Notes under the pieces: generated by a model
Seen by the model: only the letters and a program-made list of their open reading frames with translations
Database searches by the model: none
What the model was told of the DNA's origin: nothing
Translations under genes and position numbers: made by a program
NCBI GenBank assembly: GCA_002687735.1
Contig: NZBD01000015.1
Location: 54,499-118,498 of the forward strand
DNA from: Candidatus Iainarchaeum sp.
GTDB lineage: Archaea; Iainarchaeota; Iainarchaeia; Iainarchaeales; Iainarchaeaceae
Length of the DNA stretch: 64,000 bases
Direction: 5' to 3'
Part shown: positions 1,355 through 56,279 of the stretch, one piece after another
Numbering within the stretch: the stretch's first letter is position 1
How the letters are laid out: every line of letters begins with the position of its first letter

Positions 1355-1383
1355 AATTAATTCCCACTAATTTCTTTATCCTT

Positions 1384-1447
1384 CCACAGTTGCGGCTGTG
1401 GGCAACGCGTACCATCTTCACCTTGAGGCTCGATGCTACTAACTCAG
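1384..1447 (+). mobile_element. hairpin-headed mini-element copy A (64 bp), flanked by 23-bp direct duplication 1361-1383 / 1448-1470
   Basis: Starts with CCACAGTTGCGGCTGTGG. Flanks TTCCCACTAATTTCYTTATCCTT are duplicated and encode the C-terminus KDKEISGN of the minus-strand gene. The element supplies that gene's TGA stop. Confidence 0.6.
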
Positions 1448-2085
1448 TTCCCACTAATTTCCTTATCCTTTAGAAGCATTTTTCCCATTGTGGTTAGGTC
1501 AATTTTTACTTTACCGTCTTCCCTTTCAATTTCCACAAGGCCAAGTTCTTTCAAACCAGGGTTCTTTTCGTTTCCATAAATGTGATAATTCACAAGGCTT
1601 GGCCCTAATTTGGTTTTTCTGCTTAGCATTTCTAATGAATCAAGAGACCCTTCATTATTCAGAAGCATAAGTATTCTCATTTTTTTATCTGAAAGCATAT
1701 CGTAGTATGAAAATTTCAGCACAGGAAGCAGTTCGATCTGATCATTATCAACATCAAATGCTTTAATGCCGTTTACAAATGCGGCTGCTGTTGCCGCACA
1801 GCTCATTCCTTTTGAAGCAGCGCCTAAATTAATTGTAAGCATCTTGCCCTTTTCCCTTGCTTTAATGTGATTAATAATTTCAAACATTGATTCCATTGAA
1901 TATTTGTTCAGTTCTTCGATTTCCACGGGGATTTTGAATTTCCCAAGATCAGCTTTAACCTTATCAGCTTCGCTTAAGCCTTTAGCGCTTGGGATCAAAA
2001 TTATTTTTTCAGTAGGAAATTCCCGGATTCCCACGAATAATGTTTCAGTGTTCCCGCCCAGAGGAGCAATAATTATAGTTTTCAT
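1444..2085 (-). CDS. Rossmann-like (CARF-like) domain plus C-terminal winged-HTH regulator, Csa3-like architecture
   Basis: N-terminus MKTIIIAPLGG...INLGAASKG Rossmann/CARF-like; C-terminal helix-turn-helix; assignment from sequence pattern only. Confidence 0.35.
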   Translation of the reverse strand: MKTIIIAPLGGNTETLFVGIREFPTEKIILIPSAKGLSEADKVKADLGKFKIPVEIEELNKYSMESMFEIINHIKAREKGKMLTINLGAASKGMSCAATAAAFVNGIKAFDVDNDQIELLPVLKFSYYDMLSDKKMRILMLLNNEGSLDSLEMLSRKTKLGPSLVNYHIYGNEKNPGLKELGLVEIEREDGKVKIDLTTMGKMLLKDKEISGN

Positions 2086-5837: not shown

Positions 5838-6815
5838 ATGGAAAAAATCCCTATTAAAGATGATTCAGAAAAACAGCTTTTTGATGCCTTAAAAGAAGCC
5901 TGTGATGGCATAGAGTTCAGTTCTTTTGAGGTAGGTGTTTCTAGTGAATCACTGGAAACTAAATATAAAATAAGACAAAAATCAATAGATTTTGTAAAAT
6001 CTACTTTTAAATCAAAACACGATTCTGAAAATTTTGAAAGCTATATTTTAGTTCATTTTGACAGGGGCTTTATTGAGGTCACTCCTACAAATGTTCTTGT
6101 TGAAGGTTTTTACAATAAATTTTCAAGAGATATTGCTCAGACATTTCATTATTGTTTTAAGTGCAGAGGCAGGGGCTGCAAAAAATGTAATAAAACAGGA
6201 AAACTTTCTGAAGAATCTGTTCAGGAACTAATAGAAAAAATAACTCTCCCCTTATTTGAATCTAAAGAGTCTAAGTTTCATGGCTGTGGAAGAGAAGACA
6301 AAGATGTTTTAATGTTAGGAAAAGGAAGGCTTTTTGTAATTGAATTAGTGGAACCAAAAAAGCGTTCAATTGATCTGAAGAACCTTGAAGAAGAGATCAA
6401 TTCAAAAAACAAGAATAAAATTTCTGTCAGAGGATTAAAGTTTGTTGAAAAGCAAAGAGTTGTCGAAATAAAAAATACTCCTTTCGAAAAAATTTATTCT
6501 GCAAAGTGTTTGTGTTCAGAAATTTCACAAAAAGAACTTGAAACCTTAATTAATAAAAAAATTAAAATTTTCCAGCGTACTCCTGTAAGGGTTGAAAAAA
6601 GAAGAGCGGATAAGAAAAGAGAAAAAACAGCAAAAATACTTAAAGCAAAATTAATTAACGAGAAAGAGTTTTCGTTAGAAATACTTTCATCACACGGCCT
6701 TTATATTAAAGAGTTTATTTCCGGGGACGAAAAAAGAACTGAACCGAGCATTTCTTCCATGCTCGGAAAAGAATGTGTTTGTAAAGAACTTGATGTACTG
6801 GAAATTGTGATTTAA
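5838..6815 (+). CDS. pus10: tRNA pseudouridine(54/55) synthase Pus10
   Basis: Zn-ribbon CFKCRGRGCKKC and catalytic HGCGREDKDVLMLGKGRLF motif. Confidence 0.8.
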   Translation: MEKIPIKDDSEKQLFDALKEACDGIEFSSFEVGVSSESLETKYKIRQKSIDFVKSTFKSKHDSENFESYILVHFDRGFIEVTPTNVLVEGFYNKFSRDIAQTFHYCFKCRGRGCKKCNKTGKLSEESVQELIEKITLPLFESKESKFHGCGREDKDVLMLGKGRLFVIELVEPKKRSIDLKNLEEEINSKNKNKISVRGLKFVEKQRVVEIKNTPFEKIYSAKCLCSEISQKELETLINKKIKIFQRTPVRVEKRRADKKREKTAKILKAKLINEKEFSLEILSSHGLYIKEFISGDEKRTEPSISSMLGKECVCKELDVLEIVI

Positions 6816-14984: not shown

Positions 14985-15091
14985 ACCGCCACAGTTTCGG
15001 CTGTGGGCAACGACGGTTACATGGCAAGACACAGTCTTGCTATGCCCCACAAACTCAAGTTTGTGAGGGTCTCGTTAAAACGAGATAAGCC
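14985..15091 (+). mobile_element. hairpin-headed mini-element copy B (~105 bp)
   Basis: CCGCCACAGTTTCGGCTGTGGGCAACG head followed by three further GC-rich hairpins, abutting the ftsY stop; possible short TSD AAATCA. Confidence 0.5.
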
Positions 15092-21017: not shown

Positions 21018-21089
21018 TGCAGCCACGGGGATTCGAACCCCGGCCAAGAGCTTGGAAGGCTCTGATCCTAACCGCTAGACGATGGCTGC
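21018..21089 (-). tRNA. tRNA-Gly (anticodon UCC)
   Basis: 72-nt cloverleaf, acceptor GCAGCCA/TGGCTGC, T-arm GGTTCGAATCC, anticodon loop CUUCCAA. Confidence 0.85.
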
Positions 21090-21971
21090 TTTGACATATT
21101 CTTTATGCGTTGGCACTTTTCTAGTTTCTTTAAAAATCTGGTATTTTATTGTGTGCTTAATATTGCTGGGTTTAATTAGTTTAAAAAAGGTATCCAATTG
21201 TTTCTGATCGTAAATATAAACACTTTTTCCGGACAAACTGGCCTTAAATCCAAGTGAAATCAATGCTTCTTTAATTTGATTAAGAAAATTTGGCGAACAG
21301 CTGATATATTCAACCACTCCGCTATTTTCCCTTTTTCTGTGGAAACTTCCGTCTGTATCAAAAAGTCCTCTAAGATAAGCACAGAGAAGTTTTTCGTTCT
21401 TTAAGATTACTTTTGGAATAAATGTTTTATTTTTTCTATTCCCAATTACAAATTTACATTTTTCTGAAAGAAATAAGACAAGTTCTTTGGAGTAAATCAA
21501 ACACCGAATTGCTCCATTTTTTGTTACAAATGTTGGCTCTAAACCAAATAACTTTTCAAATTTTTTACCAATAACGTTTACAACATAATCATAATCTACT
21601 ATAGCACTACACGTAATTGAGACACGGTTATTTTTACCATAAATGTTACCGTCGCCTGCCATTGCCCCTAGAAATTCTGCTAATCCTTCGTTCAATTCAG
21701 GTTGAGATATTTCTTTTTTCTGAAAATAATTTGATTTTACTATATTTAAAGTATACAATTTTTTCAAATCAAAGTCTGTTTCTATACCAAGAAAAATTAA
21801 TTTGTGAAACCGAATTTTACTGGTTTCTCTTAAATAGTGAAAAATCATCCTTCTTTTTACTTTCAAAATCTTCGCAATTTCGTTCCAATTTAAACCTGAC
21901 TTATTTTTTATTTCTCTTAAAATACTAGCTTGTTTTCCAGAGCCAATATCTACAAATAGAGTTTTTTCCAC
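21075..21971 (-). CDS. free-standing double-motif LAGLIDADG homing endonuclease with N-terminal HTH
   Basis: LAEFLGAMAGDGNI and LRGLFDTDGSF motifs; the last 15 nt of the ORF are the first 15 nt of tRNA-Gly(UCC). Confidence 0.75.
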   Translation of the reverse strand: MEKTLFVDIGSGKQASILREIKNKSGLNWNEIAKILKVKRRMIFHYLRETSKIRFHKLIFLGIETDFDLKKLYTLNIVKSNYFQKKEISQPELNEGLAEFLGAMAGDGNIYGKNNRVSITCSAIVDYDYVVNVIGKKFEKLFGLEPTFVTKNGAIRCLIYSKELVLFLSEKCKFVIGNRKNKTFIPKVILKNEKLLCAYLRGLFDTDGSFHRKRENSGVVEYISCSPNFLNQIKEALISLGFKASLSGKSVYIYDQKQLDTFFKLIKPSNIKHTIKYQIFKETRKVPTHKEYVKAAIV

Positions 21972-23270: not shown

Positions 23271-23335
23271 AAGCTTTTCTTTTTCGTGAAAAAGAAAACC
23301 TTGACCAAAAGAAAAAGCCAAGTCTTTTTGCCAAA
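23271..23335. repeat. palindromic T-rich intergenic module, copy 1 (upstream of tRNA-Gly GCC)
   Basis: TTTTCTTTTTCGTGAAAAAGAAAA inverted repeat plus a second hairpin containing GACCAAAAGAAAAAG; two further copies at 26914 and 52416. Confidence 0.5.
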
Positions 23336-26667: not shown

Positions 26668-26720
26668 AAGTTTATAAATAGCTTAGCATACGAAAAAATT
26701 AAGAGTGGGCCAGGGAGGAC

Positions 26721-26840
26721 CCAAACGCCGTCTGCTCACGGCGGTAGAGCGTCCACCTTCGGTAGGACTAAACTTATGTCCTGCTGCGACCGACGGGAGT
26801 GCAGGACGGCCGTTTGCGGTACTCACGGTCGCAAACGTGA
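26721..26840 (-). repeat. 120-bp GC-rich structured insert between two 15-bp copies of the tRNA-Val 3' end
   Basis: Exact direct repeat TGGGCCAGGGAGGAC at 26706-26720 and 26841-26855. The insert carries a 7-bp stem GTTTGCG/CGCAAAC and a tRNA D-arm-like GCTCACGGCGGTAGAGC. Confidence 0.5.
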
Positions 26841-26913
26841 TGGGCCAGGGAGGACTCGAACCTCCGATCCTCTCCGTGTAAAGGAGATGTCATAGCCACT
26901 AGACCACAAGCCC
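26841..26913 (-). tRNA. tRNA-Val (anticodon UAC)
   Basis: 73-nt cloverleaf, D-arm GTCTAGTGGCTATGAC, anticodon stem TCTCC/GGAGA with loop UUUACAC, T-arm GGAGGTTCGAGTCCTCC. Confidence 0.8.
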
Positions 26914-26985
26914 GACCTTTTTCTTTCTTTGAAAAGAAAGAAAAAGCTCGACCAAAAAGAAAGAAACTTTTTGGCATTATACTTA
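26914..26985. repeat. palindromic T-rich intergenic module, copy 2 (upstream of tRNA-Val)
   Basis: CTTTTTCTTTCTTTGAAAAGAAAGAAAAAG inverted repeat plus CCAAAAAGAAAGAAACTTTTTGG hairpin. Confidence 0.5.
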
Positions 26986-39597: not shown

Positions 39598-39610
39598 TTC
39601 GCACCGGCAA

Positions 39611-39727
39611 TGCACGCCTCAGAAAAACCAAGGTTTTTCCGAGACCTTTTCCTTTTTTGAATCTTTAATTTATAACCCATTGTGAGCAATGGGTTGGACG
39701 TTAGCGTACCACACAGCCGCAACTGTG
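39611..39727 (-). mobile_element. hairpin-headed mini-element copy D (117 bp), flanked by 12-bp duplication TCGCACCGGCAA (39599-39610 / 39728-39739)
   Basis: Minus strand begins CACAGTTGCGGCTGTG directly after the duplication and carries further hairpins (AACCCATTG/CAATGGGTT; AAAAACC/GGTTTTT). It is inserted into a copy of the promoter box. Confidence 0.55.
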
Positions 39728-39768
39728 TCGCACCGGCAACACACCCCTTGAAAATGCTTTTTAAAGCA
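39728..39768 (+). promoter_or_regulatory. promoter of 498-aa gene: box GTCGCACCGGCAAC plus TATA (GCTTTTTAAAGCAG)
   Basis: Box-TATA-ATG arrangement as at radA and nurA. Confidence 0.5.
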
Positions 39769-54347: not shown

Positions 54348-54418
54348 AATAATTCATGTGGCTGTAAACAGTTAAAAAACCTTAGAACAGAATTCTAAGA
54401 TGGCAAGAATAGCAGTAT

Positions 54419-54500
54419 CAGAACCACAGTTGCGGCTGTGGACGCCCTTCGGGCGGCGTCCATCTCGCTTGGGCTCGATAGGACTTGGAAGGGATTAGTA
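54419..54500 (+). mobile_element. hairpin-headed mini-element copy C (82 bp), flanked by exact 19-bp duplication ATGGCAAGAATAGCAGTAT (54400-54418 / 54501-54519)
   Basis: CCACAGTTGCGGCTGTGG, then GACGCCC-TTCG-GGGCGGCGTC stem, then CCATCTCGCTTGGGCTCGAT as in copy A. The duplication contains the ABCE1 start codon. Confidence 0.6.
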
Positions 54501-56279
54501 ATGGCAAGAATAGCAGTATTGGAAAAGGATCGTTGTATCAACAAAGAGGGCTGTAATTTCATTTGTGGCAATGTTTGTCCTGTAAATAGAGCCGGTAAGG
54601 AATGCATTTCCCTAGATGAGGAAACAAACAAGCCGGTTATAAGTGAAGACCTCTGCATAGGCTGCAATATTTGCGTAATCAAATGCCCGGTTGATTGTAT
54701 TTACATTGAGAATCTTGTGCAGGAACTAAATGAGGAGCCGGTTCAAAGATTTGGTGAAAATGAGTTTAGAGTTTACAGATTGCCTCTTATAAGAGAAGGA
54801 GAAATTGTAGGTTTGATTGGAAGAAACGGTATTGGAAAAAGCACTATTCTAAATATCCTTTCAGGTCAGTTAGTGCCGAATTTAGGGGATTATGAAAACG
54901 AACCAAATTATGATAAAGTAATGAATTTTTTCAAGGGAAGAGAATTACAGGATTACTTTTCTTCATTAAAAGAAAAATCAATAAAAGTTTCTTTCAAACC
55001 ACAGAACATCAACGATATCCAAAAGGCTTACAAAGGAAATGTAAATGATTTGCTGAAAAAGGTTGATGAAAGAAAAAAACTGAAAGAAATTTCCAAAATA
55101 TTAAGAATTGAAAAAATTCTTGAAAGGGATTTAAAAAGTTTAAGCGGAGGAGAACTTCAAAGAGTTGCTATTGCAGCTGCTGCTTTGAAGGATGCTGATT
55201 TTTATGCGTTTGATGAACCAACATCTTATTTAGATGTTAAAGAACGTTTGAACATGGCTGCATTATTAAGATCTTTAGCAGTTGAAAAGAAAACAGTTAT
55301 TGTTATTGAGCATGACTTAGCAGTTTTGGATTATTTGAGTGATTATGTTCATTTGCTTTATGGAAAAAAATCAGTTTATGGAATTGTTTCAAATTCTAAA
55401 AGTGTAAAAAATGGCATTAATGAATTTTTGGAAGGTTTTGTAAAAGATGAAAATGTGAGATTCAGAAAAGAAGAATTAAAATTTGAGGTTAAGCCTTCAA
55501 CTGATTTTAAACTGAAAAATATTGTTGCAAAGTATCCTTCTATGAAAAAATCTTTTGAGAATTTTTCTTTGGAGGTTGAAGGCGGTGAATTAAGGGAAGC
55601 AGAGGTATTAGGAATTATGGGTCCTAATGGTATTGGTAAAACCACTTTTGTAAAGATGTTGGCAGGAGTTGAAAAGCCTGATGAAGGTTCTATTGATCTT
55701 TCTCTTAAAGTTTCTTACAAACCTCAGTATCTTTCTCCTGAACAAGGAGTTACTGTTGCTGATTTTATTACTTCTCAAAACATAGACCGTGCTGTTTTCA
55801 AACAAGAGGTAGATAGACGTCTTTTCATTAGTGAGTTAGAAAACCATAAATTAGAGGAACTTTCAGGAGGGGAGCTCCAGAAAATTGCAGTAGGAATGGC
55901 CTTATGCAGAAACGATGTTGAATTAGTGCTTTTAGATGAACCAACAGCTTTTGTCGATATTGAGGATCGTCTCAATATGGCTGACACTATCAGGTCTGTT
56001 ACTGATTCAAAAAAGAAAGTTTGTCTGGTTGTTGACCATGATCTTGTGTTTCAGGATTCTGTTAGTGACCGCTTAATGATTTTTGAAGGAGAATCTTCAG
56101 TGAAAGGTTTAGCCAGGAAGCCTTTCACAATGCATGATGGGATGAATCACTTTTTGAAATCCATGCAACTTTCATTTCGACGCGATAAAACAAACGGTCG
56201 CCCTCGTGCAAATAAACCAGGTTCACAATTAGATAAGGAACAAAAAGCCAAGGGCGAATATTACTATTCAGTAGAATAA
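54501..56279 (+). CDS. abce1: ABCE1 (RNase L inhibitor / Rli1 ribosome-recycling ATPase)
   Basis: N-terminal 4Fe-4S Cys clusters and twin ABC cassettes; start at ATG 54501 (MARIAVLEKDRC), not the upstream GTG. Confidence 0.9.
   Translation: MARIAVLEKDRCINKEGCNFICGNVCPVNRAGKECISLDEETNKPVISEDLCIGCNICVIKCPVDCIYIENLVQELNEEPVQRFGENEFRVYRLPLIREGEIVGLIGRNGIGKSTILNILSGQLVPNLGDYENEPNYDKVMNFFKGRELQDYFSSLKEKSIKVSFKPQNINDIQKAYKGNVNDLLKKVDERKKLKEISKILRIEKILERDLKSLSGGELQRVAIAAAALKDADFYAFDEPTSYLDVKERLNMAALLRSLAVEKKTVIVIEHDLAVLDYLSDYVHLLYGKKSVYGIVSNSKSVKNGINEFLEGFVKDENVRFRKEELKFEVKPSTDFKLKNIVAKYPSMKKSFENFSLEVEGGELREAEVLGIMGPNGIGKTTFVKMLAGVEKPDEGSIDLSLKVSYKPQYLSPEQGVTVADFITSQNIDRAVFKQEVDRRLFISELENHKLEELSGGELQKIAVGMALCRNDVELVLLDEPTAFVDIEDRLNMADTIRSVTDSKKKVCLVVDHDLVFQDSVSDRLMIFEGESSVKGLARKPFTMHDGMNHFLKSMQLSFRRDKTNGRPRANKPGSQLDKEQKAKGEYYYSVE

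What the first reader, a model, noticed from the sequence alone, without database searches (positions are those of the whole stretch)
26706..26913. tRNA-Val 3' end duplicated 15 bp, with a 120-bp highly structured GC-rich insert between the copies
The last 15 nt of tRNA-Val (GTCCTCCCTGGCCCA, read on the minus strand) recur exactly 135 bp downstream of the tRNA. The copies enclose a 120-bp segment far more GC-rich than the genome. That segment has a 7-bp stem GTTTGCG/CGCAAAC at one end and a tRNA D-arm-like GCTCACGGCGGTAGAGC on the opposite strand. This is the classic footprint of site-specific integration into a tRNA 3' end (an att core duplication), here with a minimal cargo. Alternatively it is a second, tRNA-derived structured RNA, since the D-arm-like segment and the shared 3' terminus suggest tRNA-derived (SINE-like) ancestry. 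This parallels the hairpin-headed element family and may be a related mechanism.
Basis: seen in the sequence. Interest (0 to 1): 0.6.

Follow-up and report, generated by a model that had tools for sequence, protein, structure and literature searches.

The report
Tiny hairpin mobile element behind tRNA-Val
The duplicated tRNA-Val tail marks an old insertion of a small non-coding, hairpin-rich mobile element; it belongs to a family, apparently undescribed, that copies about 20 bases of its target and often lands at tRNA gene ends in DPANN archaea.

Summary
The last 15 nt of tRNA-Val(TAC) recur exactly 135 bp downstream, or 21 nt with 2 mismatches. They enclose 120 bp at about 61% GC in a 34% GC marine Iainarchaeota genome.

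It is not a tRNA, an intron, a known Rfam RNA or an assembly artefact. It is also not a tyrosine-integrase att footprint.

It is a diverged copy of the window's 'hairpin-headed' elements. A covariance model built without it recovers it at 42 bits (E about 2e-6). Four more copies lie in the window. Three of them (near 1.4, 39.7 and 54.4 kb) are flanked by 19-24 nt duplications of unrelated, non-tRNA targets.

- Relatives with an identical tRNA-Val show an empty site, a homologous decayed copy, or different inserts at the same spot.
- A 99.98%-identical genome lacks the 54.4 kb copy exactly.
- Similar GC-rich inserts of 63-116 nt with 17-26 nt duplications sit at tRNA ends in other DPANN contigs.
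- The elements have no terminal inverted repeats and no ORF.
- None of 68 window ORFs matches a transposase, integrase, reverse transcriptase or Cas1 family.

The mobilising enzyme and mechanism remain unknown.

The parts
26841..26913 (-). tRNA-Val(TAC), intact; the target of the insertion
   Evidence: ARAGORN; Rfam RF00005 at 61.6 bits. The sequence is identical in relatives L086, L148 and L158.
26841..26861 (-). Proximal copy of the duplicated target: tRNA positions 53-73, of which 59-73 are the exact 15 nt
   Evidence: D5
26823..26840 (-). Head hairpin of the element, TCACG-TTTGCGAC-CGTGA, abutting the tRNA 3' end. It is a diverged form of the family head NCACAG-TTGCGG-CTGTGN.
   Evidence: Alignment with compensatory changes; covariance model R1 hit at 42.4 bits
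26778..26807 (-). Hairpin B, GTCCTGC...GCAGGAC, followed by ATAAGTTTAG. It is conserved in window copy 4, L158 and L018.
26751..26768 (-). Hairpin D, GTCCTACC-GAA-GGTGGAC
   Evidence: The homologue in L086 6431-6449 is GTCCTGTT-GAA-AACAGGAC, with compensatory changes
26721..26743 (-). Hairpin C, CGCCG-TGAGCAGA-CGGCG, plus the tail TTTGG. A 29-nt stretch including it is identical in L086 at 6447-6475. The hairpin and tail are shared with L093.
26706..26720 (-). Distal copy of the duplicated target (exact 15 nt). It is non-functional because no T-stem partner precedes it.
26693..26698 (-). T6 run, the likely tRNA-Val terminator, displaced 135 bp downstream by the insertion (inferred)
   Evidence: Read from the sequence. 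Relatives with empty sites have a T-run directly after the tRNA.
1361..1470 (+). Family copy 1: direct repeats 1361-1383 and 1448-1470 (23 nt, 1 mismatch) around a 64-nt element with head CCACAGTTGCGGCTGTGG at 1384
   Evidence: (D1)
14989..15090 (+). Family copy 3: head CCACAGTTTCGGCTGTGG plus three further hairpins; no clear flanking repeat
39599..39748 (-). Family copy 4: direct repeats 39728-39748 and 39599-39619 (21 nt, 86%) around a 108-nt element. It is the closest paralogue of the finding's element.
   Evidence: (D7)
54400..54524 (+). Family copy 5: direct repeats 54400-54423 and 54501-54524 (19 exact, or 24 with 2 mismatches) duplicating the ABCE1 start codon, around a 77-82 nt element. 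It is absent from a 99.98%-identical genome.
   Evidence: (D3)

Best explanation
Positions 26721-26840 are an old, partly decayed copy of a small (about 115-120 nt) non-coding mobile element built from GC-rich hairpin modules. It belongs to the window's 'hairpin-headed' family. It inserted directly after the last base of tRNA-Val.

Insertion duplicated 15-21 bp of target, from the T-loop to the discriminator base. The upstream copy still completes a normal tRNA. The downstream copy is a dead fragment that now precedes the original T-run terminator.

**Shown here**
- Homology of the insert to dispersed copies that are flanked by unrelated duplications.
- Conserved hairpins with compensatory base changes.
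- Empty, filled and differently filled tRNA-Val sites in relatives.
- Presence/absence of a sister copy between near-identical genomes.
- Absence of terminal inverted repeats and of any ORF.

**Inferred**
- A trans-acting enzyme, not identified and with no recognisable family in this window, joins the element at nicks staggered by roughly two helical turns. Gap repair then produces the 17-26 bp duplications.
- The hairpins, as single-stranded DNA or as RNA, are what the machinery recognises.
- tRNA gene ends and other gene boundaries are preferred or tolerated targets, because the duplication regenerates the gene end.
- The element is co-transcribed as a tRNA-Val 3' trailer and removed by normal 3' processing.
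For: 1. **Family membership.**
   - The insert of L158, which follows an identical tRNA-Val, matches window 39623-39726 at E=1.7e-13.
   - A covariance model built only from window copy 4, L158 and L018b finds 26767-26840(-) full length at 42.4 bits, E about 2e-6. That is the best non-seed hit in 128 kb searched.
   - In the 4-sequence alignment, 12 of 21 predicted pairs show a compensatory change.
2. **Duplications are target-site duplications.** Four of the longest local direct repeats in the window (D1, D3, D5 and D7, of 21-30 nt) flank four of the five hairpin-headed copies. Their sequences are unrelated to one another.
3. **Gain and loss.**
   - L148 has the same tRNA-Val followed directly by CTCTTATTTTT, an empty site.
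   - L158 has a collinear homologous element whose distal repeat has decayed.
   - L093, L104 and L207 carry an insert about 11 nt further downstream that shares hairpin C.
   - L086 has a different 65-nt insert with a perfect 20-nt repeat.
   - L213, which is 99.98-100% identical over 11.5 kb, lacks copy 5 precisely.
   - L086 carries the hairpin D plus C module at the DnaG stop codon, where the window has none.
4. **The pattern is general.** L033, L019, L015 and L041 (three inserts) show GC-rich inserts of 63-116 nt with 17-26 nt repeats at tRNA ends.
5. **No terminal inverted repeats** beyond chance.
6. **The window is a housekeeping region** with no match to mobile-element enzyme families.
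7. **The sequence is real**: it is present in three independent assemblies.
Against: - No enzyme, autonomous copy or transposition intermediate was found, so the mechanism is inferred from footprints only.
- Inserted sequences in other DPANN contigs (for example the three in L041) share no common termini. That fits poorly with a transposase that recognises specific ends.
- Copy 3 and L018b have no visible flanking repeat.
- The exact 15 nt of the distal repeat survives although the insertion predates the split from L158, where the repeat has decayed. This suggests gene conversion or selection rather than pure neutrality.
- The folding energy of the insert alone is only modestly better than shuffles (z = -1.85).
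- Only about 1 Mb of related sequence could be surveyed. Copy numbers per genome are unknown.
Confidence: 0.72

Rival explanations
1. Remnant of a tyrosine-integrase integrative element (virus or plasmid). The 15-21 nt would be the att core, attL and attR would flank what is left after the interior was deleted, and the two ends of the insert would be the former attP arms.
For: - The repeat runs from the T-loop to the 3' end of a tRNA, a classic integrase sublocation.
- Partial tRNA copies produced by integration are common in archaea (PMC9897764, PMC3293823).
- The region between tRNA-Val and LemA varies among relatives. It holds a 281-aa wHTH gene in L086, a methyltransferase in L148 and a membrane protein in L158.
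Against: - The same element family is flanked by equally long repeats of unrelated, non-tRNA targets.
- No integrase family matched any window ORF.
- No kilobase-scale element bounded by this core was seen in 90+ related loci.
- The only viral contig with the tRNA tail is an unrelated high-GC phage tRNA array.
- The three insertions at this tRNA use different junction points, +0 and about +11.
Confidence: 0.1
2. A host-functional structured RNA, such as a small RNA, a processing or stability element, or a terminator module. It would be transcribed with tRNA-Val and released by 3' processing, with the mobile-element features being secondary or ancestral.
For: - There is no T-run between the tRNA and the insert, whereas a T6 follows the distal repeat.
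- Hairpins are kept through compensatory changes across paralogues and genomes.
- The head loop is UNCG-like (UUGCGG or UUUCGG).
- A homologous element also follows tRNA-Val in the distant relative L018.
- The distal repeat is still exact in the window.
Against: - More than 25 syntenic relatives, and L148 with an identical tRNA, lack it.
- Copies lie in both orientations relative to neighbouring genes: three sense and two antisense in the window.
- Copy 5 is dispensable in a near-identical genome.
- No Rfam family matches any copy.
Confidence: 0.12
3. A non-canonical tRNA intron or alternative 3' exon. The pre-tRNA would pair its 5' acceptor and T-stem strands with the distal copy, and the 135 nt would be spliced out.
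For: - Because of the repeat, either copy could complete the same mature tRNA.
- DPANN tRNAs do carry odd T-loop inserts, for example L041.
Against: - No junction compatible with the mature tRNA gives a bulge-helix-bulge motif. No position has the 4-bp central helix together with both flanking helices.
- The tRNA is complete without splicing.
- The distal T-loop reads TTTGG and lacks C56 and A58.
Confidence: 0.02
4. Assembly artefact: a mis-join or k-mer overlap creating a false duplication.
For: - Such artefacts exist in the data. L033 has a 100-N scaffold gap flanked by a 21-nt overlap.
- Two low-coverage contigs break at 26855.
Against: - The identical structure appears in the Tara scaffold, a UBA MAG and a SPAdes contig.
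- Homologous inserts are present in independent JGI metagenomes.
Confidence: 0.01

Closest known systems
MITEs (miniature inverted-repeat transposable elements) of prokaryotes
   Same: Small, non-coding and multi-copy. They lie in intergenic DNA or at gene ends, are flanked by target duplications, show presence/absence polymorphism, and depend on an enzyme encoded elsewhere.
   Different: These elements have no terminal inverted repeats. Their duplications are 15-26 bp and variable, against 2-10 bp and fixed as MITEs are defined in PMC11602168. No parent insertion sequence is known.
attL/attR remnants of tRNA-integrating elements (SSV- or pNOB8-type integrases; cis-mobilizable elements of ICEs)
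   Same: A complete tRNA plus a partial 3' copy bracket foreign DNA. Empty sites occur in relatives.
   Different: There is no integrase and no shared core among family members. Other copies sit at non-tRNA sites. The insert is only 120 bp and is homologous to dispersed repeats.
Casposons and Cas1-type integration (including CRISPR repeat duplication)
   Same: To my knowledge, one of the few prokaryotic integrase families that make long duplications: 1-27 bp with a median of 15 for casposons (PMC4046053). Some casposons target tRNA 3' ends (from my own knowledge).
   Different: Casposons are kilobases long, have terminal inverted repeats and encode Cas1 and PolB. None of these features is seen here.
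Non-LTR retroposons and SINEs inserted by target-primed reverse transcription
   Same: Long target duplications of variable length, no terminal inverted repeats, a structured end, and a possibly 5'-truncated copy (L086 6411-6476).
   Different: No reverse transcriptase was found, there is no A-rich or other common 3' tail, and such elements are not known in archaea. Both ends of the elements vary between copies.
Modular hairpin repeats of bacteria (REP/BIME, pneumococcal BOX)
   Same: Dispersed GC-rich hairpin modules that are shuffled between copies and sit at gene boundaries.
   Different: To my knowledge those families are not flanked by 20-bp target duplications. No RAYT-like gene was seen here.

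Membership tests
tRNA-integrating tyrosine-recombinase element (att footprint) | Direct repeat equal to the 3' part of the tRNA on both sides of the insert | tested here: met
tRNA-integrating tyrosine-recombinase element (att footprint) | Integrase gene in or next to the element | tested here: not met
   The insert is 120 bp and non-coding. Pfam and NCBIfam scans of 68 window ORFs give no recombinase.
tRNA-integrating tyrosine-recombinase element (att footprint) | All members use the same core (site specificity) | tested here: not met
   Copies 1, 4 and 5 have unrelated flanking repeats.
MITE | Terminal inverted repeats of at least 10 bp | tested here: not met
   The best terminal inverted match is 1-6 nt, within the range of shuffles.
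MITE | Short target duplication of fixed length (2-10 bp) | tested here: not met
   Observed lengths are 15-26 bp and vary between copies.
MITE | Small, non-coding, multi-copy, with empty sites | tested here: met
Archaeal intron-containing or split tRNA | Bulge-helix-bulge motif at the exon-intron junctions | tested here: not met
Archaeal intron-containing or split tRNA | tRNA incomplete without splicing or joining | tested here: not met
   The complete tRNA scores 61.6 bits.
Second tRNA, tRNA-like RNA or other known RNA family | Match to a tRNA model or to any Rfam covariance model | tested here: not met
   ARAGORN on both strands. Rfam at E<=10 over 26600-27050 hits only tRNA-Val and chance matches outside the insert. 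Other copies give none at E<=1.
Casposon / Cas1-mediated insertion | Cas1 (and PolB) encoded by the element or the genome | not testable with these tools
   Absent from the window.
Casposon / Cas1-mediated insertion | Terminal inverted repeats | tested here: not met
SINE-like retroposon (target-primed reverse transcription) | Long target duplications of variable length without terminal inverted repeats | tested here: met
SINE-like retroposon (target-primed reverse transcription) | Partner reverse transcriptase; common 3' end with 5'-truncated copies | tested here: inconclusive
   No reverse transcriptase in the window. There is one apparently 5'-truncated copy, L086 6411-6476, but tails differ between head-sharing copies.
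Hairpin-headed element family of this window | Head hairpin abutting one flanking repeat, followed by GGTAC and hairpin B, scored by a model that excludes the candidate | tested here: met
   R1 hit at 26767-26840(-), 42.4 bits, E about 2e-6, model positions 1-66 of 66.

The most novel reading that the evidence does not exclude
The hairpin-headed inserts, and the analogous GC-rich inserts with 17-26 bp duplications at tRNA ends in Micrarchaeota and other DPANN contigs, may represent a previously undescribed class of archaeal mobile element. Such elements would lack terminal inverted repeats and ORFs, be built from shuffled hairpin modules, and be inserted by machinery that sets a stagger of about 20 bp. 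That machinery could be a Cas1-like 'ruler' integrase or target-primed synthesis from a structured RNA or ssDNA intermediate. It would have a preference for tRNA gene ends.
Probability: 0.35. Interest if true: 0.8.

Novelty: new variant of a known kind. Interest (0 to 1): 0.6.

Why it matters
DPANN archaea have tiny, streamlined genomes. Few mobile elements have been characterised in them (my own knowledge; my literature searches found no description of elements like these).

Standard MITE and IS finders require terminal inverted repeats and short duplications, so a family like this would probably go undetected. The elements nevertheless reshape gene ends:
- they add 3' trailers to tRNAs;
- they create upstream ORFs;
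- they supply new stop codons.

They also break metagenome assemblies at polymorphic sites.

The duplication of about 20 bp points to an integration chemistry that only a few prokaryotic enzymes are known to perform. Finding the enzyme could reveal a new integrase or a retro-insertion pathway in archaea.

For annotation, the work shows that short tRNA-tail repeats in DPANN genomes need not mean prophage integration.

Tried and rejected
- **Second tRNA or tRNA-like RNA.** ARAGORN and Rfam were negative.
- **5S, SRP, C/D or other known RNA.** No Rfam hit for any of four copies tested.
- **T-loop intron.** An explicit bulge-helix-bulge scan of all compatible junctions was negative.
- **A similar tail repeat at L033 tRNA-Val.** It turned out to be a 100-N scaffold gap with overlapping ends.
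- **Contigs L082 and L083 both starting at 26855.** They probably come from one low-coverage sample. Another contig of the L082 assembly (L216) overlaps the break, so this is not evidence of polymorphism.
- **Parent virus or plasmid.** Three viral-contig scans (tRNA tail, first hairpin, family head) gave only unrelated chance matches.
- **Single-sequence searches.** The insert alone, searched by blastn and nhmmer against the window and the 80 loci then held (L001-L080), found nothing. The family surfaced only through L158's copy.
- **Terminal inverted repeats.** None found.
- **IS200/IS605-type insertion.** Rejected because left flanks share no target tetranucleotide and long duplications are present.
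- **Mobile-element enzymes in the window.** Pfam on 68 ORFs and NCBIfam on 10 unknown ORFs found none. PDB sequence search was run on only one of them, the 498-aa ORF next to copy 4. The only related hit is a free-standing LAGLIDADG ORF.
- **Literature.** Searches for such elements in DPANN found no description.

Full report
**1. The observation**

The window is an AT-rich (34.5% GC) stretch of archaeal chromosome. ARAGORN and Rfam call four tRNAs, including tRNA-Val(TAC) at 26841-26913 on the minus strand at 61.6 bits.

- The 15-mer GTCCTCCCTGGCCCA occurs exactly twice, at the tRNA's 3' end and 135 bp downstream. Shuffles expect 0.01 occurrences.
- The repeat extends to 21 nt with two mismatches.
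- The enclosed 120 bp runs at about 0.61 GC.
- No T-run follows the tRNA, but a T6 follows the distal copy.
- The same sequence is present in three other assemblies of near-identical genomes (L081, L215, L216), so it is not an assembly artefact.

**2. Who and where**

The neighbouring genes are LemA, an M48 (HtpX-like) protease, a transglutaminase-like protein and archaeal DnaG. DnaG is 100% identical to a 'Candidatus Diapherotrites' (Iainarchaeota, DPANN) protein from Tara Oceans data. The order DnaG then tRNA-Val is conserved across the phylum.

**3. What it is not**

- *A known RNA.* Nothing in Rfam matches the insert on either strand, even at E<=10.
- *A second tRNA.* ARAGORN finds none.
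- *An intron.* I tested every pair of splice positions that would regenerate the mature tRNA. None gives the 4-bp central helix together with both flanking helices of a bulge-helix-bulge motif.
- *A conserved gene at this locus.* In 26 syntenic relatives from the species-level genome collection, tRNA-Val is followed by ordinary AT-rich spacer or a T-run, with no GC-rich insert and no tail repeat. The one apparent exception, L033 tRNA-Val, is a 100-N scaffold gap with overlapping ends.

**4. Close relatives show a hot spot**

A metagenome scan for the tRNA tail, together with contig look-ups, gave loci whose tRNA-Val is identical or differs by one base. I ordered them by LemA identity to the window.

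| Locus | LemA identity | State of the tRNA-Val site |
|---|---|---|
| L086 | 95% | A different 65-nt insert bracketed by a perfect 20-nt repeat, TTCGAGTCCTCCCTGGCCCA |
| L158 | 87% | An element collinear with the window's: head hairpin, GGTAC, hairpin B, then a hairpin D-like stem. Its distal repeat has decayed to TTTGGGTTCAACCTAACCCG |
| L093, L104, L207 | 83% | An insert sharing only hairpin C and the tail (TACCGCCG-loop-CGGCGTTTG). The insertion point is about 11 nt past the tRNA end, so the duplicated stretch is about 24 nt |
| L148 | 83% (93% nucleotide identity to L093) | Empty site: the tRNA is followed at once by CTCTTATTTTT |

At least three separate insertions have therefore hit this tRNA end within one clade. 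The space between tRNA-Val and LemA also holds different genes in different lineages.

**5. The insert belongs to a dispersed family**

- Using L158's insert as the query, nhmmer hit a second place in the window, 39623-39726(-), at E=1.7e-13.
- That copy is bracketed by a 21-nt direct repeat unrelated to any tRNA.
- Inspection of the window's GC-rich islands then showed the same head hairpin, CCACAG-TTGCGG/TTTCGG-CTGTGG, at 1384, 14989 and 54424.
- In an unbiased list of local direct repeats, the families D1, D3, D5 and D7 (21-30 nt) are among the longest. Each brackets one of these elements, including the one in the finding.
- A covariance model built from window copy 4, L158 and L018b, without the finding's copy, recovers 26767-26840(-) full length at 42.4 bits, E about 2e-6. 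It also finds copies 3 and 1 at E about 0.01-0.02.
- In the four-sequence alignment, 12 of 21 predicted pairs show compensatory double changes. The hairpins themselves are therefore under constraint.
- The 3' half of the insert (hairpins D and C) recurs in L086 at the DnaG stop codon. The window has no insert there. A 29-nt stretch is identical, and hairpin D shows compensatory changes.
- Modules are shared in different combinations and orientations between copies and between distant genomes. One example is an 18-nt identity between window copy 5 and L019 in reverse orientation.

**6. Mobility**

- L213, from MAG GCA_002499505.1, is 99.98-100% identical to the window over 11.5 kb. It lacks copy 5 exactly and has a single ATGGCAAGAATAGCAGTATTGGAA.
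- The Tara scaffold ends at that very position, by coordinate arithmetic. An assembly break is expected at a polymorphic site.
- Copy 4 and the tRNA-Val copy are present in all near-identical assemblies.

**7. The same pattern elsewhere in DPANN**

A screen for GC-rich inserts between local direct repeats found several more cases.

| Locus | Target | Flanking repeat | Insert |
|---|---|---|---|
| L033 (Micrarchaeota) | tRNA-Lys | 21 nt | 63 nt |
| L019 | tRNA-like 3' end | 17 nt | 82 nt |
| L015 | tRNA-Gly | 12 nt exact, about 20 with mismatches | 116 nt |
| L041, three inserts | one just past the 3' end and one at the 5' end of a tRNA-Gly; a third in the 5' part of another tRNA gene | 26, 21 and 19 nt | 69, 80 and 76 nt |

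The L019 and L033 inserts share a tail.

**8. Features that constrain the mechanism**

- Duplications are 15-26 bp, mostly 19-24.
- There are no terminal inverted repeats beyond chance.
- There is no ORF.
- Left flanks share no target motif.
- Orientation relative to neighbouring genes is mixed.
- None of 68 window ORFs matches a transposase, integrase, reverse transcriptase or Cas1 family. The only related item is a free-standing LAGLIDADG ORF beside tRNA-Gly(TCC).

These features exclude three readings:
- a canonical MITE, defined by terminal inverted repeats plus a 2-10 bp duplication (PMC11602168);
- IS200/IS605-type insertion;
- a fixed att core.

Two readings remain open. One is an integrase that makes widely staggered cuts; casposon duplications span 1-27 bp (PMC4046053). 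The other is a target-primed copying process. I cannot decide between them.

**9. Most likely history of this locus** (inferred)

An ancestor of the window and L158 lineages received a hairpin-headed element directly after A73 of tRNA-Val. The duplicated tail kept the tRNA intact, and the terminator moved 135 bp downstream. The element has since diverged, and its head is now TCACG-TTTGCGAC-CGTGA. The distal tail decayed in L158 but is still exact in the window, whether by chance, gene conversion or some use. The element is probably transcribed as a 3' trailer.

**10.

- 'Insertion with a duplicated target and an empty site in relatives' is right.
- 'att core of a site-specific integrase' and 'tRNA-derived' are not supported.
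- The suggested kinship with the hairpin-headed family is confirmed as actual membership.

**11. Limits**

- Only about 1 Mb of related DNA could be read.
The family head could therefore be searched only in viral contigs, where it gave chance hits.
- Literature searches found general support for tRNA fragments arising from integration in archaea (PMC9897764, PMC3293823). They found no description of elements like these. Absence from that library does not prove novelty.

Noticed in passing
window 26913-26950 and 23271-23300 (minus strand, directly upstream of tRNA-Val and tRNA-Gly-GCC): A pyrimidine-run/purine-run hairpin (for example CTTTTTCTTTCT-TTTCAA-AGAAAGAAAAAG) preceded by ...TTTTGGTCRAG sits immediately 5' of both tRNAs. 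A similar hairpin sits upstream of tRNA-Val in L086, L087, L088 and L158; the TTTTGGTCGAG motif was seen only in L086 and L158. It may be a tRNA leader, a promoter element or a bidirectional terminator.
   Followed up: partly
window 21075-21971 (-): A free-standing 298-aa ORF with a LAGLIDADG_3 domain. It resembles the homing-endonuclease parts of inteins, and its 3' end abuts or overlaps tRNA-Gly(TCC) at 21018-21089.
   Followed up: partly
window 54400-54524; L213 9474-9492: Copy 5 duplicates the ABCE1 start codon. This creates a 32-codon upstream ORF that runs through the element and stops at a TAG just before the real ATG. The element is missing from a 99.98%-identical MAG, and the Tara scaffold ends exactly at the site.
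   Followed up: yes
L041 7450-7781 and 9091-9204: One DPANN tRNA-Gly(GCC) carries three inserts: a 69-nt insert with a 26-nt repeat at its 5' end, a 40-nt AT-rich hairpin insert inside the T-loop (intron-like), and an 80-nt insert with a 21-nt repeat 6 nt past its 3' end. A further insert splits the first 13 nt of another tRNA.
   Followed up: partly
L086 6411-6476: A 5'-truncated-looking copy (hairpins D and C only) is inserted at the DnaG stop codon. It supplies a new Leu-stop (TTA TAA) and shows no clear flanking duplication.
   Followed up: yes
L042 9983-10115: An intron-containing tRNA-Gly(GCC), with an intron of roughly 55 nt after position 37. ARAGORN missed it, and its 3' half is identical to that of tRNA-Gly(TCC).
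   Followed up: no
L113 about 2430-2495: A 55-nt 3' portion of tRNA-Val, including an encoded CCA, is preceded by non-tRNA sequence. It could be a fragment, or a split or intron-bearing gene.
   Followed up: no
L033 7665-7764; also L052 and L078: 100-N scaffold gaps whose two sides overlap by 15-21 nt. They mimic direct repeats and could mislead repeat screens.
   Followed up: yes
L018 7401-7460 and 7628-7693: A distant Iainarchaeota relative (DnaG 47% identical) has two family-like elements, one 5 nt after the DnaG stop and one 1 nt after tRNA-Val. Neither has a visible flanking repeat.
   Followed up: partly
window 26671-26678: A palindromic TATA-like box, TTTATAAA, lies between the distal repeat and LemA. 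It could serve LemA on the minus strand, or drive a plus-strand transcript antisense to the element and tRNA-Val. This was read from the sequence only.
   Followed up: no
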